64,000 bases of DNA from Babesia bigemina (Eukaryota), in the NCBI RefSeq assembly GCF_000981445.1, contig NC_027218.1, positions 3,410,001-3,474,000 on the forward strand, in the 5' to 3' direction. Made by a program: the position numbers and the translations under genes. A model generated the notes under the pieces. It was given only the letters and a program-made list of their open reading frames with translations, was not told the DNA's origin and did no database searches. Positions 2,523 to 60,785 of this stretch are shown here, piece after piece (positions within the stretch are counted from its first letter, which is position 1; the number at the start of each line of letters is the position of its first letter).

Positions 2523-2999
2523 TCAGCTGCGCAGTAGATACCGCACCCTGTGGAACGGCCGGATGCGGAAGTAGATCATGACGCAGATGACGACAATGAC
2601 GAGGGTGACGGGGACGATGATGTAAGGGATGACGGCGGGGGATGATGAATTAGGGGAGCTGGCTGAAAGCTCTCGACCGGAGCTGTGCTGCTCTACACGG
2701 GGAAGAGAGGCGGCATGGGAGGAAGTAGAGGAAAAACCGGCACGCTGTAGACTGTTGGACGAAACAGAACTGGAAGCAGTTGATCCTCTTTTGAGACCAC
2801 AATAACATGAACACGTGCGTTTCTTACACTCTTGACATCCATCGGGATGGCAATTCCCTCCTCCCCCACTGCGCTCTCGATAGAACTTCATACAGAAATA
2901 ACACCTCGTTCTAGTGCATCCTGCACAAGACACGTAACAGCAATAACAGTCACGCTCCGTACAGCTTTTGTTACACTTACAGTCCAACAGTCCACTCAT
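2523..2999 (-). CDS. Small Cys-rich single-pass membrane protein s1 (158 aa; R-type tail YFRIRPFHRVRYLLRS)
   Basis: ATG in GGGGAAG-ATG context, 16 Cys in first ~67 aa, Ser-rich linker, hydrophobic helix, basic tail; four paralogues in window. Confidence 0.85.
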   Translation of the reverse strand: MSGLLDCKCNKSCTERDCYCCYVSCAGCTRTRCYFCMKFYRERSGGGGNCHPDGCQECKKRTCSCYCGLKRGSTASSSVSSNSLQRAGFSSTSSHAASLPRVEQHSSGRELSASSPNSSSPAVIPYIIVPVTLVIVVICVMIYFRIRPFHRVRYLLRS

Positions 3000-3011: not shown

Positions 3012-4595
3012 CTCCCAGTCCCCTCAGCCTGCAAACATATCAATCACCTAAGCAGCACTCACCAACTGCAACACTACCACTGCCGCTCCCAGTCCCCTCA
3101 ACCTGCAATCATATCAATCACCTAGCAAGCACTCACCAACTGCAACACTACCACTGCCGCTCCCAGTCCCCTCAGCCTGCAAACATATCAATCACCTAAG
3201 CAACGCACTCACCAACAGCAACACTACCACTGCCGCTCCCAGTCCCCTCAACCAGCTAACATCAATCACTCAAGCAGCACTCACCAACTGCAACACGTAC
3301 CACTGCCGCTACCACTCCCCTCAACCTGCAGACATATCAATCACCTTGCAACGCACTCACCAACTGCAACACTACCACTGCCGCGCCCAGTCCCCTCAAC
3401 CTGCTAACATATCAATCACCTAGCAAAGCACTCACCAACTGCAACACTACCACTGCCGCTCCCAGTCCACTCAACCTGCGAACGTATCAATCACCTAGCA
3501 AGCACTCACCAACTGCAACACGTACCACTGCCGCTCCCAGTCCCCTCAGCCTGCAAACATATCAATCACCTAAGCAACGCACTCACCAACAGCAACACTA
3601 CCACTGCCGCTCCCAGTCCCCTCAACCAGCTAACATCAATCACTCAAGCAGCACTCACCAACTGCAACACGTACCACTGCCGCTACCACTCCCCTCAACC
3701 TGCAAGCATATCAATCACCTAGCAACGCACTCACCAACTGCAACACAACCACTGCCGCTCCCAGTCCCCTCAACCTGCGAACATATCAGTCACTCAAGCA
3801 GCACTCACCAACTGCAACACTACCACTGCCGCTCCCAGTCCCCTCAGCCTGCAAGCATATCAATCACCTAAGCAACGCACTCACCAACTGCAACACTACC
3901 ACTGCCGCTCCCTGTCCCCTCAGCCTGCAAGCATATCAATCACCTAAGCAGCACTCACCAACTACTACACGTACCACTGCCGCTCCCAGTCCCCGCAGCC
4001 TGCGAACATGTCAATCACCTAAGCAACGCACTCACCAACTGCAACACTACCACTGCCGCTCCACTCCCCTCAACCTGCAAACATATCAATCACCTAGCAA
4101 GCACTCACCAACTGCAACACTACCACTGCCGCTCCCAGTCCCCTCAGCCTGCGAACTATCAATCACCTAGCAACGCACTCACCAACTACAGCACGCACCA
4201 CTGCCGCTCCCACTCCCCTCAACCTGCAAACATCAATCACCTATGCAAGCACTCACCAACTGCAACACGTACCACTGCCGCGCCCAGTCCCCTCAACCTG
4301 CACGCATATCAATCACCTAAGCAGCACTCACCAACTGCAACGCGTACCACTGCCGCTCCCAGTCACCTCAACCTGCAGACATATCAATCACCTAAGCAGC
4401 ACTCACCAACTACAGCACGCACCACTGCCGCTCCCACTCCCCTCAACCTGCAAACATCAATCACCTATGCAAGCACTCACCAACTGCAACACGTACCACT
4501 GCCGCGCCCAGTCCCCTCAACCTGCACGCATATCAATCACCTAAGCAGCACTCACCAACTGCAACGCGTACCACTGCCGCTCCCAGTCACCTCAT
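3012..4595. repeat. Repeat D array, ~74-76-bp unit, ~21 copies, directly upstream of s1
   Basis: Unit caactgcaacactaccactgccgctcccagtcccctcaacctgcaaacatatcaatcacctagcaacgcactcac; actcac counted 21 times. Confidence 0.95.
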
Positions 4596-4599
4596 CATC

Positions 4600-5105
4600 A
4601 CGTACCCTCACCCCTGTCTCCCCCCAGCCCAGGCTCCGACACCCACGCTGCCCGGGATACCACGGCTGCCCTGACGCGACGCATGTGATCGGCACCAACT
4701 GTCACTTTGAATTATTGAATATTCGCAACGCCATTAAGATTGCAGCGAACCCCGTGCGCTCAGCTCCCACAGTGCAGCAGCACCGTGCTACGAGCCGCAA
4801 TATAGACGCCATGCTGGCGGAGCGTGTCGGCTACGTGCCCAAATATCATATTAACAACCGCTACATCGCTGCCTATAAATGCTACTTAACCGGGCCAACG
4901 CTGATTACGCCACCCTGCCAGTGACTCGCAACACACGACTTAGGTCCCCCGCCGCGGCCCTCACGGCCGCCTACGTAGCAACCAATCACCCAGCCTCACG
5001 TGACACTCACTCAATAGGCAACGCGGACGCCTCTCTCAGTCAATGCACAGCTCAACGCACCAGGCAATCAACGTGCTACAACACCCACCAAATTACGGTT
5101 CATCC
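4600..5105. promoter_or_regulatory. Conserved ~500-bp non-repetitive spacer (candidate promoter region of small gene), copy 1 of 5
   Basis: Highly similar copies at ~13680, 22655, 44670, 60795, always between D and E arrays; function inferred from position only. Confidence 0.4.
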
Positions 5106-5107: not shown

Positions 5108-5315
5108 CAGCTCAGCACTTTGCCTGTGTGCCAGCTTACCACTTTGCCTGGGTGCTTGCTTACCACTTTGCCTGTGTGCTAGGTTAGCACATTGCCTGTG
5201 TGCCAGCTTAGCACTTTGCCTGGGTGCTAGGTTAGCACTTAGCCTGAGTGCTAGCTTAGCACTTTGCCTGGGTGCTAGGTTACCACTTTGCCTGAGTGCT
5301 AGGTCAACACGTTGC
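5108..5315. repeat. Repeat E array, 24-bp unit gcttagcactttgcctgggtgcta, ~8 copies
   Basis: Tandem copies; internal inverted repeat tagcac/gtgcta. Confidence 0.93.
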
Positions 5316-5461: not shown

Positions 5462-8400
5462 TTACGGTTGCAGGTACGATATCTTGGCAAGCCTTCCGAC
5501 TTGCGCCGCCGCCAACAGCGATTGCGCCGTTATCTTGTGCGACGACGGTATCCTCAGATGTGACCGTATGTGGAGCACATCCAGTCTGCCAACCATGACG
5601 CAGATGAGGTAGAAGAGGGACAGTGACCAGAGTGCGACGGTCATCCACAAGAAAGGTCCGCGGATGGTGAAAATGAATTCATCGCACTTTTCGAACAGCG
5701 TTCTGAAGTAGTTGGAATTTAATACATTGTTGAGTTGTTTGTAGAAATTGTGGCAATACCTTTTCCCCTCTGCAGCTGAAAGCGTTGCTGGATTGCCGAA
5801 CGTGAATCCGAAACTATACAACGTGCTTATGACACCGCGGCATTCAACGAGGCCTTTGCACTGGCAATTATAGGCAGCGCCATGCTTACCCCGTTTGCAA
5901 GCTGTGCCATGCGTACAGCGACGACATCCCCAATCCTGGCAGGATATGTTGGTAAACGCCCTGAACAAAGATTCAAGACACTGCCAGAACGACCACGGTA
6001 AGTACACTGCCCATGACAGGTAGAGACCGGCGTGCTTCTCGGCAGCGTAGTGGTATGCATCATTGTGCAACGTGGTCAGGTACGGAGCGCAGTGAACATC
6101 CTTGTTCGGATAGTTGCACGTAGTAGGCATTGAAAGCGTTGACAAGTCGGAGTCTGAAGCTTTGGGATGCTCGCCAACTTCGTGGCTCCGGCCGTTTTTG
6201 TAAGCGTCACTAAGCGCACCTGTGAGTGTGCCTGGATCCGCACACAAGTCGATGGACTGCTTCTTGATTGCCTTCACAAACGCAGCGTGGACAGCATTTG
6301 AGTTGACATCTCTGTTAGCATTAAACGCACCAACCAACGTGAGCACAAACTGGAAGTGCTCCGGCAGCGTGGATGGTGGCTTGGGCAGAAGGCACATCAG
6401 TGAGGATATTAAGCCTGTACCGAGGAAGGTCTTGATTGCGTCACACAACTGTCTGCCCGTTTTCGTGCTGCCCGAGAAGCCCTTGAATCCGAGAGGAAGC
6501 AGGCACGGTTGCCCTGGAGAGCTCTTGGAGCAGGTGCTGCATTTCGCTCTGCATCCCACTGACTGCAGTTGGTGCGGCAGATGGCCAGGGAGGCTGTCAC
6601 TGAGATATAACATTAGCGGGGACGTTGGTTGGCAGTTTACTTGACACCTTGCTTGGCTGTTTGCTTCATCGCCTGAGTGCTCGTTACACTGCGATTTGGT
6701 TGTAGGGATGTCCCTCCCGTAGCGGCAGTGTGACCAGCCGTGGTGTTCGGGCGTGATGTTACACTGCAGTTCCAGGAACCGGAACACGGGCAACAATCGG
6801 CGCAGTAGGTCCAGCAGCATGTCCAGGCAGTCCGACGGATCCGATGGGTAATGGAAATTAAATGAGTTGTTGCAGAAGTCGGAGGCGTAAACGGTCCTGG
6901 AGTCGCCAGTCCCGACGACGGCAGTCAATACGTCATACGACGTCGCACAGATGTGGTCCACGGCTTTACGTACGTAGTTATACGATATGTTCCGGGGGTG
7001 TGCTGTTATGGATTGGGCTGCCATGTCAGTCGATGTGAGCTCAAGTTCGTCGTCGCCGGCCGCCTTCTTATGCGGGTTGTCAAATAAGTCACTGATGGTG
7101 ATATCACGCATTGTAGAATATACGGCAGTGTACGGAAAACCGCTGAGCCAGATCAATATGTCGTATACGGAGCACGGGTGCTGCCTCGCTGAGGCCGTGA
7201 GCAGGTGGCACAGTTCATTGTACTGCTCGAAGTGGCTGAATATGCAGTCAATAGCGTCGAACACGTGGAAGTGATTGTCTTTTCTTTGCTCGTTCGATTT
7301 GCATCCCTTAAGATGTGCGTTGTCATCGGCGCCGCGAATTGGTAGCAGCAGCCGCTTTGCAACGTTCTCCCCCGCAACTGTCGGTCTGTTTTGCAACTCG
7401 CCGTTCTGCAGCGTCGCATCGGAGACCGCGTAGCCGTGGCCGACAAATGATCTTCCCACGTCGGTGGACTTATTAATTTGCTGTCCACGTAGACTCTTGC
7501 AATTGTGCGTCAAGTCGGTCAACGTGGAGTTGAGGGTGCATACCACGGTGAAGCATATTTTGGCGAATTTGGCGCCATACGGCGTTAATTTCTGCTTCTC
7601 AAACATCTCGCCGCCAAACGTCTCACTGTCGTAGGCGGAGATGTACGCCTTCGCTAGCTCATCGTGCATCCCCTGTACGCCCTTTCTTAGACACTCGAGC
7701 AGGAGGTTGCTGTCGTCGGCGTAGGATGCGGGGCGTAGGTTATCAAGTAAAGACTGGAGGGTGTTGAGTTTGGTGCTGAAATTGTGGTCGAAAAGGTGTT
7801 TTCTAGCTGCCGGAATGTCATGAAGGTGTTGCAGTAACGCATCTAATTTGTCCTTGAGATCGCCGACATTTTTGGTATGAGGAATTGGATCACCATCGAC
7901 AACCCGGACTGAAGGATTTCTATTTGACATGGTCTCAGTGTGATGTCTTTTAAGTTCGACGACGAGATACGTGTTGAGTGGATCGTACAATTTCTTGAAC
8001 TCCTGTGACAGCGTCTTGAATTCTTCTTTCTTCGACGCCTGTTTTTTGGTGACAGCTCCTTTAAACTCTTCCAGTTTACTCGACTGATTTCGGGGAGCGT
8101 AAAGATCCCATTGGGGTGGTGGTGCCGGTTTCCCCTCGAACGCCTCCATGAATCCCTTGAAGCCAGTGTGCTTGTCCTTTTCGATCGCCTCGGGCAGTCC
8201 CTTGAGGTGCGCGGTGACCCTGTCGGCGAAGTGAGTAAGCAACAGCTGGGTAGAGGTGACGTGATCTACGCGTGCTTTTTGGGTTATTAATTTTTTGGCA
8301 TCTTCAACTTGATTGTCAACGTGCTGGTTTAGCGACTTTATGTATTTGTCTTGTAAGTTTCGTGCGTCTTTCTGGATGAAGTCATCGGCCAACCCTATGA

Positions 8401-11140
8401 CCTCTGTCACATCTATCTCATGAAGCAAAACAAGCTGCTGTTTTATTTTCTGAATGCTCTCCGTTCCTATCCGCTTAGCCTCATCATACGCCCCGAAGTA
8501 TTTATCCCTCAAATCGGTCAAGTTTCCCCTGGCGAATTGGGCGTCTTCTTCGATAAGCTGGAACAGCTCATGGAGAGCAGTGGTGACTTTTTTCAATTCT
8601 TCTTCTGCATATTGTTTTTCACTGTCGATCTTTCCCAATGCTTGTTCTACCTGGGTCTTAATGTCCCTGATCTTCTTTGGAAGTGCGCCTTCAAACTTTT
8701 CTGGCTCATCACCAATAAGGCTATCTTGTTGTACTTGCTTTTCATAATTTACAAATTTACCTCTCTGCAAATCGGATATTCTATCAACATCGGCTGGTCT
8801 GCCCATTGCATCCCCGCCGATCTCCGTATTAAGTTTGTCAGCGACAGCTTTCTGAAATTTGCCTTCTTCGAGCTCAGCGTTAATACTGTCGTACGTAGTT
8901 TTGAATGTCTTCATGATATGATCAAAATCATAATTCTTTGTACCATCGCCGTAATTCTGAGTATCCTTCTTCTTAAACGTTTGCGGGATGACAGTCGATT
9001 TAAGGTTGTCAAGTTTCTGCTTAATGTTTTTATTGAAATCGTCCACCAACGCCTGAAGGCCTCTAGAGTTTTTATGCTGGCTTCCGTCGCTGTACGTAAC
9101 TGGAACGTCACTTTCGTCACCATTATCTACGCCCTTTATGATAACATCCACCTTAGCATTTATAGCTTGCGCAACAGTTCCTATCTCCGACGCAAGTTGT
9201 ATTTCAATGACTTCAATAACTTGGAGTAACACGTCTTTAAAGTGCTGCGATACACTTTTAGCAATGTTGCCTAGGTCTGTAAGTATAGATTCCACTTCCT
9301 CCCTACTTATTGAGCTACTTCTACCAATTAGTTTTGGTAGTATTTGCTGAATAGCAGACACATGCGGTTTAATAATTTCTCTTATACTATCTACACCTTG
9401 AAAATTCTCCTTACCCATTGTCACTGACTGTAAGTCAGTTATCTGAACAGTGCCGTTTGCAATGCCGTCAAGCGCGCGAAGCTCCTGCGCAGCTTCTTTA
9501 ACAGCACTCTGTACATCATCATATATCGCACCGCTTGCGAATTTTTTCCACACTGCACCCATTTTGTTTATCGCCGCCTGGACTTGGACCATCACATTGG
9601 TGTCGAGCGTCATTATATATTCACTAACGGAGTCAAACGCATCGCCTGCTTTTATAGCCTGTAATAATTTGGTTTCACCATTGATCGCAGCGACATCAAG
9701 AATCTGTAACTTACTAAGCTGGCTTTCCACACCGCTGATAGCCTCCTGAATCGCTCTCTGTGTAGCTTCGATTTTTTCGTAAAATCCGTCCGAATTGGTT
9801 TTGAGGGGAGTGAGGATACGAGTTATTGCATCTTCAATCCTCCACAATCCATCCTTCACATGCCCTTCCAACTTCTCATACGGCGTTCTAATCGACTCTT
9901 CGACATGTTTCCAAATCGCTCCCTTAATGGCTCCTTTAACCTTATACAAATCCTCCTTCAGCGCGTCATTCATATCCTTAACCTGCCCAAGCGCTGCAGT
10001 AACTTTCTCTTTGACCTGCGCTTTAGCCGCCTCTCCGGCGCCGTGAAGTATCAATACAGATGCTGTGATCTCCCTTAGAGCACCCTCAATTTTATACGGC
10101 TTCATACTTGAATCACCTTTATTAACCTCTTTTAATATCGAATCAACTCTACCCAAAGCCGCCGTTATGACTATCGTAACTGAATCAATCCACTTAGTTA
10201 ACTCATCCACATACCCTGTCAGCGTTCTTTTTATGTCCTCCAATTGCAACTTGATTTTCGTTACCCTTTCTTTCATATCGTTAATAAGCTTCGTTACTTG
10301 ACCTCTAATTTCCCTATTCACGCAGGCTCCTGCATCAGTCAACACACGTTCAATCTCTCTTTCCATGTCCTGTAGGTGTTTCTCTTCCTTCCTGGATAGT
10401 TCACGCAGATGCTTTGTCTCAAGCTTAACGGAGTCACACGCTATGTTAACTCTGTCACGCAAATTAGAATTAAGATCATTAATCGAAATTTTTATATCTT
10501 TGTGATTACGATCGATATCTAAAGTTTCAAAAAAATTGGTTGCATTCCGAACAGATTGTTTTACTAGGTTTTCGGCGTCCAATGCAGCTTCCTGTGCAGT
10601 CTGAGGCCTGCGTATGTCTATATTCTTATTTAACTCACTTACCTGTTTTTTGAAGGCATCATTTACCTGTTCTAATAATCTGATTATAGGATCTGAAACC
10701 CTTTTATTAGACTTCATGACACCATCATTATACCCCCCCACCCCTTCGACCACCTTCACAATCGCAACACTAAAACCTTTTTTACCGGCGTGTTTATTGG
10801 TCTCAAGTGACGTAATTGCATTGTTTATTTCTCCTTTATGCTGCCCTAAATGCTTGTGGATGTTACTGAGAACACCACTCAGAAATCCCATCACCCCGTC
10901 ACACAGCCTATCCAAGTCGGAGTACACAATTCCAGTGCCGTCGTAGCCTTTGGAGTCAGAGTTGAAGCCGAGGAATTTTTCGAGGCCAGTACAGAGGTTA
11001 GTAAGGATGTTAGTAGGGTTGTTATTTAAGGTATTTTTGAGGTTCACAATTTTGTCAAATTTCTTGTCAAGCTCCCTAGGCGGCACACGGTCAGGGCAGT
11101 GGCAAGAGGTGGAAGAGGGAAGTGAAGGGTGACAAGGCAC
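5462..11140 (-). CDS. ves: VESA-like variant erythrocyte surface antigen G1 (tail A, short N-terminus); start uncertain (leader ATG 11169 out of frame, first in-frame ATG 10891)
   Basis: 1892-codon ORF, GIVYSDLDRLCDGVMGF motif, Cys-rich C-terminal domain, TM, tail HKITAQSLLAAAQVGRLAKISYLQP; family assignment from recalled Babesia VESA features. Confidence 0.85.
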   Translation of the reverse strand: MPCHPSLPSSTSCHCPDRVPPRELDKKFDKIVNLKNTLNNNPTNILTNLCTGLEKFLGFNSDSKGYDGTGIVYSDLDRLCDGVMGFLSGVLSNIHKHLGQHKGEINNAITSLETNKHAGKKGFSVAIVKVVEGVGGYNDGVMKSNKRVSDPIIRLLEQVNDAFKKQVSELNKNIDIRRPQTAQEAALDAENLVKQSVRNATNFFETLDIDRNHKDIKISINDLNSNLRDRVNIACDSVKLETKHLRELSRKEEKHLQDMEREIERVLTDAGACVNREIRGQVTKLINDMKERVTKIKLQLEDIKRTLTGYVDELTKWIDSVTIVITAALGRVDSILKEVNKGDSSMKPYKIEGALREITASVLILHGAGEAAKAQVKEKVTAALGQVKDMNDALKEDLYKVKGAIKGAIWKHVEESIRTPYEKLEGHVKDGLWRIEDAITRILTPLKTNSDGFYEKIEATQRAIQEAISGVESQLSKLQILDVAAINGETKLLQAIKAGDAFDSVSEYIMTLDTNVMVQVQAAINKMGAVWKKFASGAIYDDVQSAVKEAAQELRALDGIANGTVQITDLQSVTMGKENFQGVDSIREIIKPHVSAIQQILPKLIGRSSSISREEVESILTDLGNIAKSVSQHFKDVLLQVIEVIEIQLASEIGTVAQAINAKVDVIIKGVDNGDESDVPVTYSDGSQHKNSRGLQALVDDFNKNIKQKLDNLKSTVIPQTFKKKDTQNYGDGTKNYDFDHIMKTFKTTYDSINAELEEGKFQKAVADKLNTEIGGDAMGRPADVDRISDLQRGKFVNYEKQVQQDSLIGDEPEKFEGALPKKIRDIKTQVEQALGKIDSEKQYAEEELKKVTTALHELFQLIEEDAQFARGNLTDLRDKYFGAYDEAKRIGTESIQKIKQQLVLLHEIDVTEVIGLADDFIQKDARNLQDKYIKSLNQHVDNQVEDAKKLITQKARVDHVTSTQLLLTHFADRVTAHLKGLPEAIEKDKHTGFKGFMEAFEGKPAPPPQWDLYAPRNQSSKLEEFKGAVTKKQASKKEEFKTLSQEFKKLYDPLNTYLVVELKRHHTETMSNRNPSVRVVDGDPIPHTKNVGDLKDKLDALLQHLHDIPAARKHLFDHNFSTKLNTLQSLLDNLRPASYADDSNLLLECLRKGVQGMHDELAKAYISAYDSETFGGEMFEKQKLTPYGAKFAKICFTVVCTLNSTLTDLTHNCKSLRGQQINKSTDVGRSFVGHGYAVSDATLQNGELQNRPTVAGENVAKRLLLPIRGADDNAHLKGCKSNEQRKDNHFHVFDAIDCIFSHFEQYNELCHLLTASARQHPCSVYDILIWLSGFPYTAVYSTMRDITISDLFDNPHKKAAGDDELELTSTDMAAQSITAHPRNISYNYVRKAVDHICATSYDVLTAVVGTGDSRTVYASDFCNNSFNFHYPSDPSDCLDMLLDLLRRLLPVFRFLELQCNITPEHHGWSHCRYGRDIPTTKSQCNEHSGDEANSQARCQVNCQPTSPLMLYLSDSLPGHLPHQLQSVGCRAKCSTCSKSSPGQPCLLPLGFKGFSGSTKTGRQLCDAIKTFLGTGLISSLMCLLPKPPSTLPEHFQFVLTLVGAFNANRDVNSNAVHAAFVKAIKKQSIDLCADPGTLTGALSDAYKNGRSHEVGEHPKASDSDLSTLSMPTTCNYPNKDVHCAPYLTTLHNDAYHYAAEKHAGLYLSWAVYLPWSFWQCLESLFRAFTNISCQDWGCRRCTHGTACKRGKHGAAYNCQCKGLVECRGVISTLYSFGFTFGNPATLSAAEGKRYCHNFYKQLNNVLNSNYFRTLFEKCDEFIFTIRGPFLWMTVALWSLSLFYLICVMVGRLDVLHIRSHLRIPSSHKITAQSLLAAAQVGRLAKISYLQP

Positions 11141-11709: not shown

Positions 11710-11886
11710 TTATGGTTGCAGATAAAACACCCTGTTAAGCTTGTTAACACGTGCGGCAGCGAGTAGTGATTGAGCAGCTATCCTGTGACTCGATGGACTA
11801 TTTAAATGCGATTTGATGTGGAGGAGGTCTAGGCGGATGACCATGATGTGGAGGAGGTACAGGAGAGAGAGGAGCCAGAGGGCTAA
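11710..11886 (-). pseudogene. Remnant 3' end of a tail-B ves gene (LALWLLSLLYLLHIMVIRLDLLHIKSHLNSPSSHRIAAQSLLAAARVNKLNRVFYLQP*)
   Basis: Manual translation; matches tails of G4/G5/G7 and retains the tail-B 3' flank (11590-11710); rest of gene absent. Confidence 0.88.
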
Positions 11887-11993
11887 GTTATAATCGCTGC
11901 TGTAACCATTAACTTGGTCAGGCGATTTATCATCAACGCATTCATTACTCTGTCTACAACATTAGATGTCAGTTGCCGATAAGGTTAACGTGA

Positions 11994-12146
11994 TTAGCTG
12001 CGCAGTAGATACCGCACCCTGTGTAACGGCCGGATGCGGAAGTAGACCATGACGCAGATGACGACGATGATGATGAGCATAGGAGCGATGATGTAAGGGG
12101 CGGGGGAGGAGGGAGTAGTCACCTCACTGCTCATGTCATTGATCAT
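11994..12146 (-). other. Orphan R-type TM+tail cassette, 50-aa ORF MINDMSSEVTTPSSPAPYIIAPMLIIIVVICVMVYFRIRPLHRVRYLLRS
   Basis: Manual translation; homologous to C-terminus of s1/s2/s4/s5, no Cys-rich domain. Confidence 0.75.
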
Positions 12147-12247: not shown

Positions 12248-12435
12248 TTAGCTGTAGAACGCGATGCAGAAGGGTATCTTGCGTACGAGGAAATCGCGGA
12301 TGTTGCGGCCCACCGGAAAGCGGAAGATGCACAGGTCGAGCAGGATGATGGCGACGATGATGCCAACGATGACGGCGGCGATGGCCGAGTAGGGAGAGTG
12401 AAGTAGTCACCTCACTGCTCATGTAATTGGCCATC
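12248..12435 (-). pseudogene. Orphan F-type TM+tail cassette (..PYSAIAAVIVGIIVAIILLDLCIFRFPVGRNIRDFLVRKIPFCIAFYS), out of frame with its MSSEVT leader
   Basis: Manual translation; TM frame has an upstream TGA. Confidence 0.75.
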
Positions 12436-12533: not shown

Positions 12534-12680
12534 TCAGCTGTAGAACGCGATGCAGAAGGGAATCTTGCGTACGAGGAAATCGCGGATGTTGCGGCCCACC
12601 GGGAAGCGGAAGATGCACAGGTCGAGCAGGATGATGGCGACGATGACGGAGTAGGGAGGGAGTGGTCACCTCACTGCTAA
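12534..12680 (-). pseudogene. Orphan F-type tail cassette with shortened TM, out of frame with leader
   Basis: Manual translation PPYSVIVAIILLDLCIFRFPVGRNIRDFLVRKIPFCIAFYS*. Confidence 0.72.
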
Positions 12681-12753: not shown

Positions 12754-13215
12754 TCAGCTGCGCAGTAGATACCGCACCCTGTGGAACGGCCGGATGCGGA
12801 AGTAGACCATGACGCAGACGACGACGATGAGGAGGGCGACGGCGGCGATGATGTAAGGGACGGGGGAGGAATTGGATGGAGCGGTGGTATGAACAGCACT
12901 GGGTTCACCGGTGGAACGCTGTACGGTGGTAGAAGAGGAGACACTAGGCGATTGGACTGCGAGGGAGGAAGAAGAGCGAAGCTGTCGACGTTCTTCCAAT
13001 TTTTTTTTCTCACAACAGTCACATGGACACAATTTGGTGTCACATTCATTACATCTCTGAGGTTTGCAGTCCCAGAATCCACTCCTTAGCCGAGTAGACA
13101 GATTGAGACATCGAAGACAACTTGGACTCCTACATCCTGCACAACACAAATGACAACAAAGACACTCATGCTCTGTACATCGTTTTGTACACTTACACAA
13201 TGGAGTATAGCCCAT
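12754..13215 (-). CDS. Small Cys-rich single-pass membrane protein s2 (153 aa; R-type tail)
   Basis: Same Cys spacing, linker, TM and tail as s1; GGGAAG-ATG start. Confidence 0.85.
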   Translation of the reverse strand: MGYTPLCKCTKRCTEHECLCCHLCCAGCRSPSCLRCLNLSTRLRSGFWDCKPQRCNECDTKLCPCDCCEKKKLEERRQLRSSSSLAVQSPSVSSSTTVQRSTGEPSAVHTTAPSNSSPVPYIIAAVALLIVVVCVMVYFRIRPFHRVRYLLRS

Positions 13216-13227: not shown

Positions 13228-13665
13228 CTCCCAGTCCCCTCAGCCTGCAAACATATCAATCACCTAAGCAGCACTCACCAACTGCAACACTACCACTGCC
13301 GCTCCCAGTCCCCTCAACCTGCAAGCATGTCAATCACCTAGCAACGCACTCACCAACTGCAACACGTACCACTGCCGCTCCCACTCCCCTCAACCTGCAA
13401 GTATATCAATCACCTAGCAACGCACTCACCAACTGCAACACTACCACTGCCGCTCCCACTCCCCTCAACCTGCGAACATATCAATCACCTAAGCAACGCA
13501 CTCACCAACTGCAACACGTACCACTGCCGCGCCCAGTCCCCTCAACCTGCAGACATGTCAATCACCTAGCAACGCACTCACCAACTGCAACACTACCACT
13601 GCCACGCCCACTCCCCTCAAGCTGCAAGCATATCAATCACCTACGCAAGCACTCACCAACTGCGA
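13228..13665. repeat. Repeat D array, ~6 copies
   Basis: Same ~75-bp unit. Confidence 0.93.
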
Positions 13666-13679
13666 CATGACTTACATAA

Positions 13680-21555: not shown

Positions 21556-21742
21556 TCAGCTGTAAAACGCGATGCAGAAGGGTATCTTGCGTACGAGGAA
21601 ATCGCGGATGTTGCGGCCCACAGGGAAGCGGAAGATGCACAGGTCGAGCAGGATGATGGCGACGAAGATGGCAACGATGACGGCGGCGATGGCGGAGTAC
21701 GGAGGGGGGGAAGGTCACCTCACTGCTCATGCGATTCGTCAT
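21556..21742 (-). pseudogene. Orphan F-type TM+tail cassette, out of frame with its MSSEVT leader (a G homopolymer lies at the junction)
   Basis: Near-copy of the s3 3' end and its 3' flank; TGA at 21715-21717 in TM frame. Confidence 0.75.
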
Positions 21743-21840: not shown

Positions 21841-22401
21841 TCAGCTGTAGAACGCGATGCAGAAGGGTATCTTGCGGACGAGGAAATCGCGGATGTTGCG
21901 GCCCACAGGAAAGCGGAAGATGCACAGGTCGAGCAGGATGATGGCGACGATGATGGCAACGATGACGGCGGCGATGGTGGAGTAGGGAGGGGGGGAAGGC
22001 GGAGAATCATCGTCTTTCTTGACAGCTTGGGGAGGGGACAAATGATCTTGACTGGCTTCGGAGCTTTTTGGACCTGGGAGAGAGGGGGAACCAGGGGGAG
22101 GCTGTGGAACGGGGAGAGGAGATTGGCAGGAGTCAGGCTCCTCTCTACATTTCCGTTGACAACAGTCACATTTACAGTCTTTCTCCTTGCCTGTACATTG
22201 TTTCTTACATCTCAAAGTTTCGCATTCGTATTTTTTACCTCTGTTTTGGCTGCGCATAAAGTAATCATACCAACATTCATCGCATCTTCCAGCCTTACAC
22301 TCTGTACAACACCAGGGACAACAATTACACACTACATTTTTTCGACATCCATTATGACACTGCGTGCACAGAGCATATGGCATGTACACTCGCCCCGTCA
22401 T
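21841..22401 (-). CDS. Small Cys-rich single-pass membrane protein s3 (186 aa from ATG 22401; F-type tail ..RKIPFCIAFYS)
   Basis: GGGGAAG-ATG start as in paralogues; Cys-rich domain, Pro-rich linker, TM. Confidence 0.85.
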   Translation of the reverse strand: MTGRVYMPYALCTQCHNGCRKNVVCNCCPWCCTECKAGRCDECWYDYFMRSQNRGKKYECETLRCKKQCTGKEKDCKCDCCQRKCREEPDSCQSPLPVPQPPPGSPSLPGPKSSEASQDHLSPPQAVKKDDDSPPSPPPYSTIAAVIVAIIVAIILLDLCIFRFPVGRNIRDFLVRKIPFCIAFYS

Positions 22402-22409
22402 CTTCCCCT

Positions 22410-22645
22410 CCCAGTCACTCAATCTGCGAACATATCAATCACTCAAGCAGCACTCACCAACTGCAACACGTACCACTGCCCCTCCCAGTCCCCTTAACCT
22501 GCAGACATATCAATCACCTAGCAACGCACTCACCAACTGCAACACTACCACTGCCGCTCCAGTCCCCTCAACCTGCAGACATATCAATCACTCAAGCAGC
22601 ACTCACCAACTGCAACACGTACCACTGCCGCTCCCAGTCCCCTCA
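22410..22645. repeat. Repeat D array, ~3 copies
   Basis: Same unit. Confidence 0.9.
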
Positions 22646-29010: not shown

Positions 29011-29017
29011 GATTATT

Positions 29018-36417: not shown

Positions 36418-39400
36418 TTACGGCTGCAGATAAAACACTCTGTTAAGCTTGTTAACACGTGCAGCGGCGAGTAGTGATTGAGCAGCTATCCTATGACTCG
36501 AGGGACTATGCAAATGCGATTTAATGTGCAGCAGGTCGAGGCGGATGACCATGATGTGGAGCAGGTACAGGAAAGAGAGGAGCCAGAGGGCGACGTTGAG
36601 CCAGATGAAGGGGGCGCGAATTTTGAAGAGGAATTCAGGGATAGTTTTGTGCACAAGGTTGTAGAGCACGCTTCCTGGTTTTACAACATTCCCTAATGTC
36701 TTGCAAAATTCGACGCACGTCCTTTTGGTGTTGATACGCTTGGCTCCATTTAGCGATTCTGCGTCTCGGAAAGTAAATCCATACTTGTATAATATGGGTA
36801 GCGTCGACTGGCAGCTAACAACAGAAATGCAGGCGTGATCGTGACTCGGGTCAGCACTTCTTTTGGTCTGTTGCCTTTCACAGCCCTTTGCGCAGCTCTG
36901 CGTACTGCATCTAGTCCCCGGTTTGCCACACTTGCTATTGCACTCCTCAAACAATTGCTGAAGCACATAATAGAATGATTCCGTCAAATAGAGGACGGAT
37001 GACAGATACCGATCGGCGTGCTTGACGGTGAACGTTGTGCTGACTTCGGAGCATATAGGTTTCATGTAAGGACCACAGGCGTGAGATGAGTTGGAACTCG
37101 GATTACAGCTTAACAGGGAGTAGAGAGCACCATCAGCATGCTTACCGAATTTGTGGCTTGTAGTTCCAAGCATCGGCGTGATTTCCAGCTGGGTACTGGA
37201 ATTTTCAAAATTTGCAGCAATGACGGCACTGTTGAACGCCTCTTCTCTGTGCGTTATAAGTGATTTAAATCTCTGATCATTCCAGTCGACAAGCAAACAT
37301 TGGAAGAATGCGAACATCTGATCAAATGTTTTGGGAGCACTGGGCAGCACACAACGGAGCATAGAGCACATGGCAGTGAGGGGAGATGACGCAGTGCCGC
37401 AGAACTCAGCAAGCACATATCTAATATGCCTGCCAGTGTACCTGTGCGATGCCATGATGGAAATATCCTTGAAGCCCATGGGCGTTTTGCATGGCCCGTT
37501 GGTATGGCTTTTGACCGGGCAGTTGAGTTTGCCGGAGTTCCCATCTAGGTTATGCGGTAGGAAGCCCCGTAACCCGTCCTCTAGGTAAGATTGTAGAGGT
37601 GATTTTACGCCGCACCTTGGATGCCTTTTGCATTTCTCGGCACTGTTGCAATCGCCGCAGCTGAGGTCATTGCACCGCCAACCCGAGCCACCGACGCCTT
37701 GACCGTATTCGCACTCACGCCAGCCACTCATCGAAGTTGAACGTTTGCACTGATCTAACAAGAAATACAGTTGGTTGTACAGGCGGTTTACGATTTCGCA
37801 TAGCATACATACTAAGGTGTCCATGTTGGTGGGATACTGGAAGCCTTGCGGGTTGGTGTTGAAGTCGCAGGCGTAGATGCCGTCACCGTGGCCGTGACCC
37901 AAGAGAACAATAAGAGTCTCTTCGGCTTGGTGGCATACGGCTGTGAGGGTATCCGAGAGGCAAGTAGCTGTGATCTTCTTCGGGTAAGCCTCCAACGCAT
38001 TGTCATCTTCCGTCTTGAGAGTGATCTCGCTGTCATCCGTGTCGTCATCCTCCCTAACGACAGGGTCAGCGTTTTGATCACTCGCTTCCGATGCCGTTTC
38101 CTGTGGTTTTTCAAACAGGTTAGCGAAACCGTTGAGTGTCAACTCGTGATGGACGCGATTGTGAGAGAGACCGGTCAGCCAGCATAGCATATCGAATATT
38201 GAAGACGGGTGTTTTTTGGAGGTGGCAGTAAAGTGACAGATTTGGTAGTAAAAGTGGAGGTAGTCAAATAGATCCTTAAGTAATCCGGAGTGATCCTGCG
38301 ACGATCGCTTATCAAATACCGCAGATGGAGCAACGAGCAGCTCCAAAATGTTATGGCTCCTACACTCCCCATGGTTACGCAATTCACCGTCCTGCTTCGA
38401 AGAGTCAGTGGCAACGTGGTAGCCATTCGACCGGAAGAAATCACCGAGCGGATTCTTTTTGTCGCTGGTTGACGCATAGATTCTCTTGACATTCCCAACC
38501 TGACCGCATACTCTCCTCATCTCGACCAGAGCGTTGAAGAGAATCGAAAACACGGTGAGACACACCTTCGAACACTTCTTGCCGTACGCTGTCAAATCAT
38601 ACGTATTCTCAGATTTTTCGGTTGTGACTTTAATCCGATGGTTAGTCGTCAAATCATCGGTAAGCAACGCACGATCATACTTCGATATGTAGACGCTTCT
38701 CATCTCACTAACAAATTTGGTGAGCCCAGCGGCAATGCTGTCGAGTATGGCAGTGTTCGGCTTGGCGAAGGTTTCTGGTTTTAGTCCGGCGATCTCAGCG
38801 TCGAGCTTGTCAAGCTTTCCGTGCGTCTCATGGTCATACCCATTCTTGCTGGTGAAGTGCATGAGCACCTCATCGAGTGCGCCGAAAACAGATTTAAGCT
38901 TTTTAGTGTACGTAACCTCAGAAACTGTCGGCGCGCGATTCTTTCTTTTCCTTTCCTCCATATCCACTCTGTCGATCTCACGTTCCAGCAGCATTTGCCA
39001 TGGCCCGAAACAGAGCTTAAAGGCGTATGATAACTTATGAACAGTATAATCACCGTTGCGTAAATCATTAGTAAGAGGAACGTGGAAGTCTTTCATGAAC
39101 CCCTTAAATCCAATCTTCAAGTCCGCATCAATTTTCCTGGGCAGATCCCTCAACTCAGTCCTCACCTTGCCGGCAAACTCCGTGAGCAGGAACTTGATGG
39201 CCTCGACGTACGTTTTGCGGGCGTGGGTGGTGAGCTTGTCGGTGGCTTTTTGGATGTCCTTTTTGACGTGGTCTGAAATTAGTTGAGTGTAATGCTTATC
39301 GGCTCCGGCTAGGTACGAGTCAAGTAGATCGGTGGCGTCTTTGAGGGCCGTAGACACGGGGCCAGTTTGCAGCTCGTGAAGTTTTTCATGAATTTCCTGA

Positions 39401-41865
39401 AGAGTATCTTCTGCTACGGTACCGCTTTTTGCAGCGTTGCCGATGCGCTCATTCTGCAACTCAGTCAATTTCCGTCGAACTGCATTTGTGCTTGTAGAAA
39501 CGGCGTCGGACAGAGTGGCGAGATGTTCGTTGATATTGTTTGACAAGGTAACTAAATTGCTCTTAATGTGTTCAATGTCAATACTATCGGCGTATGTATC
39601 GATGGCCGTGATATTCCTGTCAACATAGGATGCGAGTGTGTCTGTGTCACCTCCTGTGGAGCTGGTTGCAAGTGTCATCCCAAGCTGTCCATGGAGGTTC
39701 TTAATTTTAGTATGAAGTTCTTGTAAAGCCACATCGATTTTGCCGCCGTAGTCCACGCCTGGTGAGGCGTTGTTTACATTGTCGTCAACTTGATTATTAA
39801 TTTCGGTCACTTTTTTCGAAATGTGCGTCAAGTTGGCGCCTACTTTAATCTCTCCACCGTCAGTGAATGATGCAATTTGTTCAGCAACACGCTTTGCTAA
39901 TACTGCCAACACTCCCACAGTGGCTTTGACGGCGAGTGTGAGATGCGTGTTGTTAGGACGACCCGTGCTGCCAAACTGTACCAACTTGCGATCGTATCGT
40001 ACCTGGCCGTCGATAGTGTTAGTGATATCGTCCCCCTTTTTTATCACTTCAGCAGAAAACTTATTCAGATAATTTTTAACATATGACAAATAGTCATCGA
40101 CTGTATTATTATGGGCAAATGTTTTTTGGGGTCCAATTTGATTGATACCATCCTTTATTTGCTCAATAATTTTCTTCGTAACATATGGACGTACGCTTGC
40201 ACGTCCCCTAGCACTCAGCTCTCCATTAAAATAACTGTTCCAAGTATTATCTTCAATATACTTCTCAATCCAACCTTTAACTGCTTCATTACTAACTATT
40301 TCCGGTATCCATTCCTTTAATACTTTCCCAAAACCAACGTCATCTCCATTCGACTCTTTAAACAACGCGGCATACTTGATTACGCCTTGTCTAATCTGTG
40401 TAATACCGTTATCATTACGAACTTTACTTCTACCACTCCGCCCCTCAATTAGATCAACATGGTCTCTAATTTCCTCTTTAAGAACACACCAGTTATGATA
40501 AATACTTGCATCACGGTGGTCGGCTGGCAATCCCGCATCTTTTTTATCTCCCACATGCCCCTCAATGATTTCTATTTTACCCTTTATATGCTGCATTATT
40601 TTCTCAATACTATCTGGCACCTCGCTGATACCGTCATTAAACTTCCTGCCAATCACGCCAATCGCACTCTTTACTTCTCTCACCTTGTCTTGCAGCGTAC
40701 TTTTGATGTTGTCAATGTGAAAATGAAGGGTATCTTTCCACTTTAACAACTCCTTTGCATCTTGCTCGATCGGATATTTTTTACTGGTAAGGCTGTCGTT
40801 CGCCTCATTTACAATGGCATCCAAACTCTTTTCCCTTACGCCGTGAATGAAACTTTGCGTTTTTTCTATCCACTGCTCCAACTCTAGAACATATTGTGAA
40901 AGATCCGTTGCAATCTTCTCCAAATTCTTCTTGATAGGCGTAACTCTCTTCCTCAGTTCATCCACAAACTTTTTCACGTCCTCACCGATTTTACAATCCA
41001 CATCCACTTTCAAAGTGCTCATCACTTCACCAATCTTCTCAATAGTCTTTTTCAACTCCTTGCTTTCCTGCTCCTTCACCCTCCCCAGCCGCTCGCTCTC
41101 ATACTCAACTGTCCTACGCACGTTCTCAAGCTTATGTTTCAAATCGCTATTTAAGTCATTAATTGATGTTTTAAGTACGCTACGTTCAGTGTCTAAGTTA
41201 TTAATGAATGTCTGAGCATTTTGTTTGCACTCTTCCAACTTGGCGTCAATCTGTCCGACGGCCTGCTTCACTTGCTTATCTTGGTACGGTATGAGATTAC
41301 CACGCTTATCTCTCACGTCTGCTAAAACATTATCTACGTCTTTCAAAAATGCATTACTTACCTTATCATTGAGTTTTTTTACTTCTTGTTTGACGAGGTT
41401 ATTAGACACTGAGACGGCATCATTATACCCCCGCACCCCTTCGACCACCTGTCCAATCGCAATATTAAAACCTATTTTACCGCCGTGTTTATTGGTGTTA
41501 AGTGATGTAATTGCTTCATTTAAAGTATTTTTATGCTGCCCTAAATGCTCTTTGATGTTACTGAGAACACCACTCAAAAATCCCATCACCCCGTCACACA
41601 GCCTATCCAGGTCAGAGTACACAATGCCACTGCCATCGTAGCCTTTGGAAGTAGAGTCGAAGCCGAGGAATTTCTCGAGGCCGGAACAAAAGTTATTAAG
41701 GATGTTAGTAGGGTTGTTATTTGAGGTATTTTTGAGGTTCAAAATTTTACAAAATTTCTTGCCAAGCTCCCTAGGCGGCACATGGTCAGGGCAGTGGCAA
41801 GAGGTGGAAGGAGGGAAGTGAAGGGTGACAAGGCACAAGTTATTAGGATGGTTTAAGAAGGTCAT
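36418..41865 (-). CDS. ves: VESA-like protein G5 (tail B, short N-terminus, leader in frame), 1815 aa
   Basis: Uninterrupted ORF from leader ATG to YLQP stop. Confidence 0.9.
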   Translation of the reverse strand: MTFLNHPNNLCLVTLHFPPSTSCHCPDHVPPRELGKKFCKILNLKNTSNNNPTNILNNFCSGLEKFLGFDSTSKGYDGSGIVYSDLDRLCDGVMGFLSGVLSNIKEHLGQHKNTLNEAITSLNTNKHGGKIGFNIAIGQVVEGVRGYNDAVSVSNNLVKQEVKKLNDKVSNAFLKDVDNVLADVRDKRGNLIPYQDKQVKQAVGQIDAKLEECKQNAQTFINNLDTERSVLKTSINDLNSDLKHKLENVRRTVEYESERLGRVKEQESKELKKTIEKIGEVMSTLKVDVDCKIGEDVKKFVDELRKRVTPIKKNLEKIATDLSQYVLELEQWIEKTQSFIHGVREKSLDAIVNEANDSLTSKKYPIEQDAKELLKWKDTLHFHIDNIKSTLQDKVREVKSAIGVIGRKFNDGISEVPDSIEKIMQHIKGKIEIIEGHVGDKKDAGLPADHRDASIYHNWCVLKEEIRDHVDLIEGRSGRSKVRNDNGITQIRQGVIKYAALFKESNGDDVGFGKVLKEWIPEIVSNEAVKGWIEKYIEDNTWNSYFNGELSARGRASVRPYVTKKIIEQIKDGINQIGPQKTFAHNNTVDDYLSYVKNYLNKFSAEVIKKGDDITNTIDGQVRYDRKLVQFGSTGRPNNTHLTLAVKATVGVLAVLAKRVAEQIASFTDGGEIKVGANLTHISKKVTEINNQVDDNVNNASPGVDYGGKIDVALQELHTKIKNLHGQLGMTLATSSTGGDTDTLASYVDRNITAIDTYADSIDIEHIKSNLVTLSNNINEHLATLSDAVSTSTNAVRRKLTELQNERIGNAAKSGTVAEDTLQEIHEKLHELQTGPVSTALKDATDLLDSYLAGADKHYTQLISDHVKKDIQKATDKLTTHARKTYVEAIKFLLTEFAGKVRTELRDLPRKIDADLKIGFKGFMKDFHVPLTNDLRNGDYTVHKLSYAFKLCFGPWQMLLEREIDRVDMEERKRKNRAPTVSEVTYTKKLKSVFGALDEVLMHFTSKNGYDHETHGKLDKLDAEIAGLKPETFAKPNTAILDSIAAGLTKFVSEMRSVYISKYDRALLTDDLTTNHRIKVTTEKSENTYDLTAYGKKCSKVCLTVFSILFNALVEMRRVCGQVGNVKRIYASTSDKKNPLGDFFRSNGYHVATDSSKQDGELRNHGECRSHNILELLVAPSAVFDKRSSQDHSGLLKDLFDYLHFYYQICHFTATSKKHPSSIFDMLCWLTGLSHNRVHHELTLNGFANLFEKPQETASEASDQNADPVVREDDDTDDSEITLKTEDDNALEAYPKKITATCLSDTLTAVCHQAEETLIVLLGHGHGDGIYACDFNTNPQGFQYPTNMDTLVCMLCEIVNRLYNQLYFLLDQCKRSTSMSGWRECEYGQGVGGSGWRCNDLSCGDCNSAEKCKRHPRCGVKSPLQSYLEDGLRGFLPHNLDGNSGKLNCPVKSHTNGPCKTPMGFKDISIMASHRYTGRHIRYVLAEFCGTASSPLTAMCSMLRCVLPSAPKTFDQMFAFFQCLLVDWNDQRFKSLITHREEAFNSAVIAANFENSSTQLEITPMLGTTSHKFGKHADGALYSLLSCNPSSNSSHACGPYMKPICSEVSTTFTVKHADRYLSSVLYLTESFYYVLQQLFEECNSKCGKPGTRCSTQSCAKGCERQQTKRSADPSHDHACISVVSCQSTLPILYKYGFTFRDAESLNGAKRINTKRTCVEFCKTLGNVVKPGSVLYNLVHKTIPEFLFKIRAPFIWLNVALWLLSFLYLLHIMVIRLDLLHIKSHLHSPSSHRIAAQSLLAAARVNKLNRVFYLQP

Positions 41866-43463: not shown

Positions 43464-43655
43464 TTAGCTGTAAAACGCGATGCAGAAGGGTATCTTGCGT
43501 ACGAGGAAATCGCGGATGTTGCGGCCGACCGGAAAGCGGAAGATGCACAGGTCGAGCAGGATGATGGCGACGATGATGGCAACGACGACGGCGGCGATGG
43601 CTTGGGGGGAAGTAGTCACATCACTGCTCATGTGATTTTTCATCAACGTAATCAT
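43464..43655 (-). other. Orphan F-type TM+tail cassette, in frame with leader (63-aa ORF)
   Basis: ORF track MITLMKNHMSSDVTTSPQAIAAVVVAIIVAIILLDLCIF...CIAFYS. Confidence 0.7.
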
Positions 43656-43701: not shown

Positions 43702-44151
43702 TTAGCTGCGCAGTAGATACCGCACCCTGTGGAAGGGCCGGATGCGGAAGTAGATCATGACGCAGATGACGACGATGATGAGGGCGACGGGGACGATGAT
43801 GTAAGGGGCGGGGTTAGAAGATGATGAACTAGTAGGGCCGGTGTGATGCAGTTGACCGGTGTGCTGCTCTACACGGGTGGGAGAGGAGGAACCGGAAGAA
43901 AAAGTGTATCCACGCTCCGCATACTGGGCACGTACAGATTCTACATTGCGTGCATTTATACGACAAAAACACGTACAGCCGGTGCCACAGTTTTTACATC
44001 CCAAATCATGGCATAAACCTTCACTTCGGCGCCTATAAGAGGTATCGCGACATACAGAACATATACCTCTACACCGTACACAAGACACGTAGCAGCATCT
44101 ACATTCACCCTGCGTACATCCAGTACCACAGGTACAATTGTCCCTTCCCAT
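43702..44151 (-). CDS. Small Cys-rich single-pass membrane protein s4 (149 aa; R-type tail)
   Basis: Same architecture and start context as paralogues. Confidence 0.85.
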   Translation of the reverse strand: MGRDNCTCGTGCTQGECRCCYVSCVRCRGICSVCRDTSYRRRSEGLCHDLGCKNCGTGCTCFCRINARNVESVRAQYAERGYTFSSGSSSPTRVEQHTGQLHHTGPTSSSSSNPAPYIIVPVALIIVVICVMIYFRIRPFHRVRYLLRS

Positions 44152-44164
44152 CTTCCCCTCTCCC

Positions 44165-44660
44165 TCCCACTCCCCTCAACCTGCAAACATATCAATCACC
44201 TAGCAACGCACTCACCAACTGCAATGTACCACTGCCGCTCCAGTCCCCTCAACCTGCGAACATGTCAATCACCTATGCAAGCACTCACCAACCGCAACAC
44301 GTACCACTGCCGCTCCCAGTCCCCTCAGCCTGCAGACATATCAGTCACCTAGCAACGCACTCACCAACTGCAACACTACCACTGCCGCTCCCAGTCCCCT
44401 CAGCCTGCGATCATATCAATCACTCAAGCAGCACTCACCAACTGCAACACTACCACTGCCTCTACCAGTCCCCTCAACCTGCAAACATCAATCACTTAAG
44501 CAGCACTCACCAACTGCAACACGTACCACTGCCGCTCCCACTCCCCTCAGCCTGCAGACATATCAATCACCTAGCGACGCACTCACCAACTGCAACACGT
44601 ACCACTGCCGCTTCCAGTCCCCTCATCAACACGTACCAGTGCCGTTCCAGTCCTTTCATC
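44165..44660. repeat. Repeat D array, ~6 copies
   Basis: Same unit. Confidence 0.92.
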
Positions 44661-60617: not shown

Positions 60618-60785
60618 CTGCCGCTCCCGGTCCCCTCAACCTGCAAACATCAATCACCTAGCAAGCACTCACCAACTGCAACACTACCACTGCCGCTACC
60701 ACTCCCCTCAACCTGCAAACATATCAATCACTCAAGCAGCACTCACCAACTGCAACACTACCACTGCCGCTCCCAGTCCCCTCAT
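60618..60785. repeat. Repeat D array, ~2 copies
   Basis: Same unit. Confidence 0.88.

What the first reader, a model, noticed from the sequence alone, without database searches (positions are those of the whole stretch)
2523..2999. Family of small hypervariable Cys-rich, C-terminally anchored proteins paired with ves genes (s1-s5)
Seen: five 149-186-aa proteins (2523, 12754, 21841, 43702, 60159) with ~16-19 Cys in a conserved spacing (C..C..C..CxCC..C..C..CxxC..C..C..C..CxCxC) but very variable intervening residues, a Ser/Pro linker, one TM helix and a near-invariant basic tail. No N-terminal signal peptide. All start in GGGAAG-ATG. Known: B. bovis SmORFs lie beside ves genes but carry signal peptides, so these look different. 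Inference: a second variant surface family (disulfide scaffold or metallothionein-like metal cluster), possibly a small VESA partner subunit.
Basis: partly seen in the sequence, partly recalled or inferred. Interest (0 to 1): 0.8.

Follow-up and report, generated by a model that had tools for sequence, protein, structure and literature searches.

The report
Overlooked cysteine-rich Babesia variant protein family
The cattle parasite Babesia bigemina carries a family of about 60 small, cysteine-rich membrane-protein genes with highly variable heads and constant tails, sitting behind one class of its known surface-antigen genes; they likely form a second set of variant surface antigens, though expression and location are untested.

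Summary
The five minus-strand ORFs are real and intact. They belong to a family found only in B. bigemina: 55 public 'hypothetical' models, many mis-spliced, with no Pfam, PDB or other-species match. Each protein has no signal peptide, a head of about 70 aa with 16-20 Cys, a Ser/Pro linker, one TM helix and a basic tail. Non-Cys identity in the head averages 18%. There are two constant tails, not one. Cysteines come and go in pairs (even count in 19 of 22), which favours disulfides over a metallothionein cluster. In the window the gene follows 5 of 5 ves1b-like genes with one C-terminal class and 0 of 3 with the other. It sits in a fixed module: 24-bp array, conserved 410-bp segment, intron-like 75-bp array, ORF, orphan TM-tail copies. 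Best reading: a small variant surface antigen family built like Plasmodium PIR proteins but unrelated to them, reshuffled by recombination between constant flanks. No expression data were obtained. The VESA-partner idea rests on gene linkage only, and the neighbouring ves copies lack the canonical N-terminus.

The parts
2523..2999 (-). s1, 158 aa, 16 head Cys, tail A
   Evidence: overlapped by mis-spliced public model BBBOND_0313750 (P0028)
12754..13215 (-). s2, 153 aa, 18 head Cys, tail A
   Evidence: no matching model among the 48 hits
21841..22401 (-). s3, 186 aa, 20 head Cys, tail B
   Evidence: no matching model among the 48 hits
43702..44151 (-). s4, 149 aa, 16 head Cys, tail A
   Evidence: overlapped by mis-spliced public model BBBOND_0313960 (P0011)
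60159..60611 (-). s5, 150 aa, 19 head Cys, tail A
   Evidence: no matching model among the 48 hits
3012..4594 (-). 75-bp array upstream of s1 (21 units; each a 32-36 nt GT..AG intron-like piece plus a 38-41 nt spacer)
13228..13667 (-). 75-bp array upstream of s2 (6 units)
22408..22645 (-). 75-bp array upstream of s3 (3 units)
44164..44625 (-). 75-bp array upstream of s4 (6 units)
60618..60784 (-). 75-bp array upstream of s5 (2 units)
4687..5096 (-). conserved non-repetitive 408-410 bp segment, candidate promoter (also 13763-14171, 22739-23149, 44752-45160, 60878-61286)
   Evidence: 89-92% pairwise identity over this segment plus the next 90 bp, five copies; promoter role inferred
5109..5315 (.). 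24-bp array between X-tail ves and small gene (also 14184-14521, 23162-23245, 45168-45691, 61296-61577)
   Evidence: absent after Y-tail ves
12534..12669 (-). orphan TM + tail B copy with an 8-codon deletion
12248..12410 (-). orphan TM + tail B copy
11994..12122 (-). orphan TM + tail A copy
21556..21718 (-). orphan TM + tail B copy
43464..43619 (-). orphan TM + tail B copy
59905..60075 (-). orphan TM + tail B copy
11710..11892 (-). orphan ves Y-type TM + tail fragment
5462..10891 (-). ves1b-like gene, X tail, followed by s1 (likewise 14692-19770 with s2, 23371-28323 with s3, 45850-51249 with s4, 61724-63877 with s5)
36418..41865 (-). ves1b-like gene, Y tail, no small gene downstream (likewise 29529-34661 and 52534-57123)

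Best explanation
These genes encode small single-pass membrane proteins of B. bigemina with a highly variable cysteine-rich head and one of two constant tails, and they likely act as a second family of variant antigens on the infected red cell surface. Shown: intact frames, fixed Cys spacing, variable residues between the cysteines, a 27-79 aa linker, one TM helix, a basic tail, and a fixed position behind X-tail ves1b-like genes. Inferred: (1) the head faces outward and is held by 8-10 disulfides, and the basic tail faces the cytoplasm; (2) the TM serves as the only secretion signal, as in VESA1, which also lacks a signal peptide; (3) the constant tail binds trafficking or membrane-skeleton machinery; (4) heads, linkers and tails are reshuffled by recombination using the upstream 75-bp array and the constant TM/tail DNA as homology, which leaves orphan tails behind; (5) the diversity is driven by host antibodies.
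For: Family size: 55 public models, all B. bigemina, two of them over this window's own loci, plus three window genes with no matching model among the 48. Variable head, constant tail: mean non-Cys head identity 18% over 22 full-length heads, while 27 of 34 B tails are identical. Tail B is conserved as protein: past the TM, the six window copies differ only at silent sites. Disulfide signature: even head Cys count in 19 of 22 (binomial p=0.0009); the optional pair at s3 C85/C92 is both present in 23, both absent in 22 and single in 3 of the 48 sequences with that cluster (12 of 60 lacked it); C31/C81 are lost together in 2 of 22. The C85/C92 label changes 7 times on the head tree, 2 of them forced by strong branches. 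Mosaicism: tail type changes 5 times on that tree, none forced beyond 1, and hybrid A/B tails occur (P0174, P0179, P0046). Linkage: 5 of 5 X against 0 of 3 Y, Fisher p=0.018. The X tail is in 41 of 87 B. bigemina and 0 of 33 B. ovata ves hits, matching the family's range. Precedent: VESA1 has one TM, no signal peptide and a short cytoplasmic tail (PMC9477259); PIRs have a disulfide head starting at the N-terminus, a disordered linker, a TM and a small inner peptide (PMC7749308).
Against: No transcript or peptide evidence was found. Six IDs are absent from the published proteome table, which found 366 proteins in another strain. Family IDs are absent from a blood/tick RNA-seq table, though neighbouring ves1b IDs are absent too. 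Positive selection is not shown: non-Cys pN and pS among the five are both near saturation (0.50-0.67 and 0.51-0.88). C85 and C92 are 5-8 residues apart and could travel together by gene conversion; the two C31/C81 losses are sister sequences, so one event. Three of 22 heads have an odd Cys count. CxxC and CxC spacings are also typical of zinc sites (recalled). A machine-learning exportome gave six members export scores of 0.06-0.14, although its training set was signal-peptide, non-TM proteins. The head tree is poorly resolved (1 of 19 branches strong). Outside the window the linkage is imperfect at contig level: 4 short contigs with a small gene carry an X-tail ves, but two (47.8 and 20.7 kb) showed only a Y-tail hit.
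Confidence: 0.5

Rival explanations
1. A variant, disulfide-bonded protein on the parasite's own surface or in a tick stage, not on the red cell.
For: The same architecture data show an oxidising location, not which membrane. No blood-stage peptide for six IDs tested.
Against: Tight linkage to ves1b, a family detected as protein in cultured parasites, and the same signal-less, C-terminally anchored layout as VESA1.
Confidence: 0.18
2. A tail-anchored protein with a cytosol-facing metal-binding (zinc-cluster or metallothionein-like) or acylated head.
For: No signal peptide, TM near the C-terminus, about 25% Cys in CxxC, CxC and CC motifs, and three heads with odd Cys counts.
Against: Cys change in pairs, not fours. 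Conserved Trp and 3-11 aromatics. Extreme diversity across about 60 copies is hard to explain for an internal metal buffer (inference).
Confidence: 0.15
3. The copies in this array are silent donors: heads are expressed only after being copied into one or a few expression sites, together with or apart from ves1b.
For: 7 of 7 ves copies with their 5' end in the window lack the first 32 or more residues of the canonical ves1b N-terminus, and 4 of the 6 printed have a stop or frameshift near the 5' end. Repeat arrays precede both gene types. Orphan tails show past recombination.
Against: Each small gene keeps its own conserved upstream segment, start context and intact frame. A missing ves first exon could lie outside the window. 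This rival concerns expression and is compatible with the surface-antigen reading.
Confidence: 0.12
4. Non-functional passengers or mis-read fragments of ves genes, spread by duplication of the ves module.
For: They lie in a repeat-rich, recombining module; public models are inconsistent.
Against: 5 of 5 frames are open despite about 50% divergence. Cys columns are fixed, 5 of 14 with both codons in use. Profile comparison with the VESA1b C-terminus gives probability under 9% in all 7 tests.
Confidence: 0.05

Closest known systems
Plasmodium PIR/CIR small variant antigens (PMC7749308, passages)
   Same: Domain starts at the N-terminus, conserved Cys and aromatic residues with a variable surface, disordered linker of variable length, one C-terminal TM, small inner peptide, multigene family.
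   Different: No sequence match (no PIR family among Pfam hits). The head is about 70 aa with 16-20 Cys against about 240 aa with five disulfides. Linked to ves genes.
VESA1 / BbigVes1b (PMC4066756 sections; PMC9477259 passages)
   Same: No signal peptide, one C-terminal TM, constant basic tail in two classes, same loci.
   Different: About one tenth the size; no detectable homology in head or tail.
B. bovis SmORF and BbigVes2
   Same: Small multicopy genes next to ves1.
   Different: Those have signal peptides and no TM. The paper found no smORF homologue in B. bigemina. No SmORF or ves2 appeared among the hits.
Giardia VSP (PMC3656445, abstract)
   Same: CXXC-rich variable part, conserved hydrophobic C-terminal anchor and short constant tail.
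   Different: No CRGKA tail (0 of 22), no VSP Pfam hit, much shorter, with a Ser/Pro linker between Cys domain and TM.
Trypanosoma VSG cassettes with 70-bp repeats (recalled, no call)
   Same: Variable coding part flanked by an upstream short-unit array and conserved 3' DNA.
   Different: Here the units carry splice-like ends and every copy has its own conserved upstream segment; conversion into an expression site is not shown.

Membership tests
SmORF | N-terminal signal peptide | tested here: not met
   SignalP 0.004-0.15 for six relatives; no in-frame upstream exon common to the five
SmORF | No TM domain | tested here: not met
   One TM in 5 of 5 and in six relatives
SmORF | Sequence homology to B. 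bovis smorf | tested here: not met
   All 55 hits are B. bigemina hypothetical proteins
VESA1/VESA2 | Conserved VESA1 C-terminal domain | tested here: not met
   hhalign probability 0.2-8.8% in 7 comparisons
VESA1/VESA2 | Homology to ves1b 5' region plus signal peptide (ves2) | tested here: not met
   No VESA Pfam hit in 20 members; no significant tblastn match to the window's ves 5' regions
PIR superfamily | PIR helical domain of about 240 aa | tested here: not met
   Head is about 70 aa; no Pfam or PDB sequence match
PIR superfamily | Disulfide head, disordered linker, TM, short tail | tested here: inconclusive
   Layout met; disulfides inferred from Cys pairing only
Small variant surface antigen (functional class) | Multicopy, variable outer part, constant inner part | tested here: met
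   topology inferred from tail charge
Small variant surface antigen (functional class) | Surface exposure and clonal switching | not testable with these tools
   No usable RNA run; no protein data
Metallothionein | Soluble, nearly free of aromatic residues (feature recalled) | tested here: not met
   TM anchor; Trp in 19 of 22; 3-11 aromatics per head; no metallothionein Pfam hit
Metallothionein | Binds metal clusters | not testable with these tools
   Needs ICP-MS on purified protein
Giardia VSP | VSP motifs 1 and 2 and CRGKA tail | tested here: not met
   0 of 22 with CRGKA; no VSP Pfam hit; motif 1 not scanned separately

The most novel reading that the evidence does not exclude
B. bigemina builds its variant surface complex from an X-class VESA1b plus one of these small disulfide-knot proteins in place of a large partner. 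That would explain why VESA1a was not detected in the published proteome (PMC4066756). The small subunit's head would be swapped by gene conversion between an upstream intron-repeat array and a constant tail, with two interchangeable tails.
Probability: 0.15. Interest if true: 0.87.

Novelty: new variant of a known kind. Interest (0 to 1): 0.7.

Why it matters
Antigenic variation in B. bigemina is described through ves1a, ves1b and ves2 in the papers read here, and the main genome paper calls the lack of VESA1a expression puzzling. A further family of about 60 variable membrane proteins, mostly mis-modelled or unmodelled in public annotation, would be invisible to existing proteomics and RNA-seq counts. 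It gives a testable candidate for a second surface antigen or a VESA1b partner. It also offers an unclassified 70-residue, 16-20-Cys domain, and two constant tails that can serve as pan-family handles for detection and trafficking studies.

Tried and rejected
Whole genome: none held, so genome-wide linkage rests on locus numbers and contig lengths. RNA: no RNA holder listed. Six raw-read runs laid nothing. One coded metagenome run (X1; RNA status a guess) gave 14 and 15 short contigs on the repeats and upstream segment only, no joints, and some pieces read through an intron-like unit unspliced. This is no test of expression and does not support splicing. Structure: AlphaFold2 gave pLDDT 63.5 (full s3) and 55.9 (head); Foldseek and VIA-align found no match, which means little at this confidence. 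PDB sequence search: 0. ESM Atlas: only generic small-TM clusters at 0.85 or less for the whole protein and no usable hit for the head. Longer fused forms: none among 7,982 candidates, weak evidence. Complex prediction of the ves X C-terminal 250 aa with s1: no answer, score 0.00, alignments not used. Hidden signal-peptide exon: a 25-28 codon upstream ORF exists in all five but ends in a stop, and removing the intron-like pieces gives no open frame into the ORF in any copy; rejected. Orphan tails as alternative last exons: in frame with the preceding flank in 3 of 6, as chance would give; some public models splice this way; not supported, not excluded. Derivation from the VESA1b C-terminus: rejected for now. 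Literature: searches listed no paper on this family, and six locus IDs occur in no full text. Supplement searches for six IDs or ID prefixes each found nothing in PMC9531838 or PMC5660447; those files may use other identifiers. One search gave 0 under word-start matching and was repeated with prefixes. Earlier scan notes: nothing.

Full report
Observation. The five ORFs are at the stated places on the minus strand and translate without stops. They align with 14 invariant Cys columns in the head. Identity to s1 is 23-51%. Each has a Ser/Pro/Thr-rich linker (36-51%), one strong hydrophobic segment and a tail with net charge +4 or +5. GGGAAG-ATG occurs five times on the minus strand, exactly at these starts. 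Total Cys counts are 17, 19, 22, 17 and 20. Four proteins share tail A; s3 has the longer tail B. A neutral null leaves 0.5-2% of such frames open at 30-40% divergence, so 5 of 5 open frames indicate selection on protein.

Family. A profile of the five found 48 proteins, all B. bigemina hypothetical proteins. A full HMMER scan of 1.84 billion representatives found 37, of which 7 were new and again B. bigemina. Two of the 48 are mis-spliced models over s1 and s4 and are not independent; s2, s3 and s5 have no matching model among those 48. Many models start in the upstream repeats and lose part of the head. Of 60 sequences, 22 have a complete head. No Pfam family reaches its cut-off for the five, and the 20-member scan gave only weak TM/linker matches. 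PDB sequence search, fold searches on low-confidence models and the ESM Atlas gave nothing useful. Only annotated proteins of other species could be searched, not their DNA, so 'B. bigemina only' is provisional.

Protein anatomy. In the 22 heads Cys make up 24-27%, a Trp in the CCxW motif is kept in 19, and an Arg after the second CxxC in 21; linkers are 27-79 aa. Mean identity is 37% with Cys and 18% without, while 27 of 34 B tails are identical. Past the TM, the six tail-B copies in the window differ only at silent sites. The last codons of tail A are invariant even at silent sites, which could reflect recent homogenisation or a constraint on the DNA or RNA. Cys number is even in 19 of 22. 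One optional pair is present or absent together in 45 of 48 scorable sequences, and a second, distant pair is lost together in s1 and s4. The first pair switches about seven times on a weakly resolved tree. Close neighbours can be co-inherited and the second case is one event, so this favours disulfides without proving them. Six relatives have no signal peptide and one TM in a published table (PMC8226867 supplement rows). Basic residues after the TM suggest the tail is cytoplasmic and the head outside (inference from the positive-inside rule, recalled).

Locus anatomy. The window holds eight ves1b-like genes on the same strand. One hit, BBBOND_0305380, is labelled BbigVes1b in the proteome table. 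They end in one of two tails, X or Y. All five X genes are followed by a 24-bp array, a 408-410 bp segment conserved at about 90%, a 75-bp array of 2-21 units and a small gene. All three Y genes run straight into the 12-, 20- and 22-bp arrays (Fisher p=0.018). The X tail is in 41 of 87 B. bigemina hits and 0 of 33 B. ovata hits. By locus number, family members lie one or two genes from VESA1B loci named in the proteome work, including both dominant ones (0303890 with 0303910; 0305310 with 0305330); strand and order were not seen. At contig level four short contigs pair a small gene with an X-tail ves, one larger contig has two X and one Y, and two show only a Y-tail hit. The simplest cause of the linkage is duplication of one DNA module.

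The 75-bp unit has GTGAGT in 38 of 38 copies and a downstream GCAG in 36 of 38, enclosing 32-36 nt. The spacers are 38-41 nt and do not keep a frame, so if they are spliced they are 5' untranslated exons. Splicing is not shown; the only contigs laid here read through such units. Four of five small genes are followed by one to three orphan TM-tail copies (six in all), and s2 also by an orphan ves Y tail. Tail type is scattered over the head tree and hybrid tails exist, as expected from recombination. The seven ves copies whose 5' end is in the window lack the N-terminus seen in 15 of 120 homologues, and several are interrupted near the 5' end. The array may therefore be partly a silent archive.

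Mechanism. Most likely (0.5) these are small variant antigens that enter the secretory route by their TM, display a disulfide-knotted head on a flexible stalk at the infected red cell, and diversify by recombination between constant flanks. Gene structure, variability, Cys pairing and linkage are shown. Topology, disulfides, export, surface location and immune selection are inferred. Rivals: parasite or tick-stage surface (0.18), cytosolic metal-binding tail-anchored protein (0.15), silent donors only (0.12), non-functional (0.05). Binding to VESA1b is possible but rests on linkage alone.

Expression. None shown. Six IDs are missing from the proteome table of another strain. IDs in six neighbourhoods are missing from an RNA-seq table of about 3,700 genes, as are adjacent ves1b IDs. 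These blanks are uninformative for variable, mis-modelled genes.

Literature seen. PMC4066756: abstract, sections 20, 22 (first of two parts) and 23, passages, two supplements searched. It names ves1a, ves1b, ves1ba and ves2, reports no smORF homologue, and says only that remaining species-specific genes are often predicted to be surface proteins with a conserved C-terminus and TM; that remark may cover this family without naming it. PMC10463595, PMC5660447, PMC10975891, PMC9477259, PMC7749308: passages. PMC3656445: abstract. PMC9806345, PMC9531838, PMC8226867, PMC5660447: supplement searches or rows. Searches found no description of the family. Subscription journals, theses, figures and bioRxiv supplements were not visible, so prior mention cannot be excluded.

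Verdict. A real, apparently undescribed gene family with an unclassified Cys domain. It likely works like known small variant antigens but is a member of none tested. Novelty: new variant of a known kind. Interest 0.7.

Noticed in passing
window, 5' ends of ves genes near 11185, 20542, 28618, 34940, 41881, 51265, 57755: All seven lack the canonical ves1b N-terminus and join a shared upstream sequence at different points; several have a stop or frameshift there. This suggests an archive of 5'-truncated donors behind 22-bp arrays, or a missing distant first exon.
   Followed up: partly
window 89-1966, 2005-2280, 2285-2411 and six similar blocks: A fixed order of 12-, 20- and 22-bp tandem arrays precedes every ves gene, with copy number varying widely (22-bp unit: 4 to 86 copies).
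   Followed up: no
ves C-termini, e.g. 5462-5650 and 36418-36600: B. bigemina ves1b-like proteins fall into two tail classes (41 X, 32 Y, 14 other of 87 hits); B. ovata hits have neither. I did not see this split described in the passages read.
   Followed up: partly
window 5400-5460, 14600-14690 and after other ves stops: Clusters of GTGAG/TAGGTGA motifs on the plus strand just downstream of ves stops resemble motifs in the 75-bp unit; they could be antisense splice signals or a shared protein-binding motif.
   Followed up: no
window about 4600-4690 and the four equivalent leaders: A 25-28 codon upstream ORF in all five leaders, out of frame with the main ORF; possibly translational control.
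   Followed up: partly
window 11710-11892: Isolated ves Y-type TM and tail fragment with its own 3' flank, joined inside the start of a 20-bp repeat.
   Followed up: partly
window 28978-29400, 35961-36278, 45157-45693, 59450-59806: ORFs of 105-178 aa made only of the 12- and 24-bp repeats; probably spurious.
   Followed up: no
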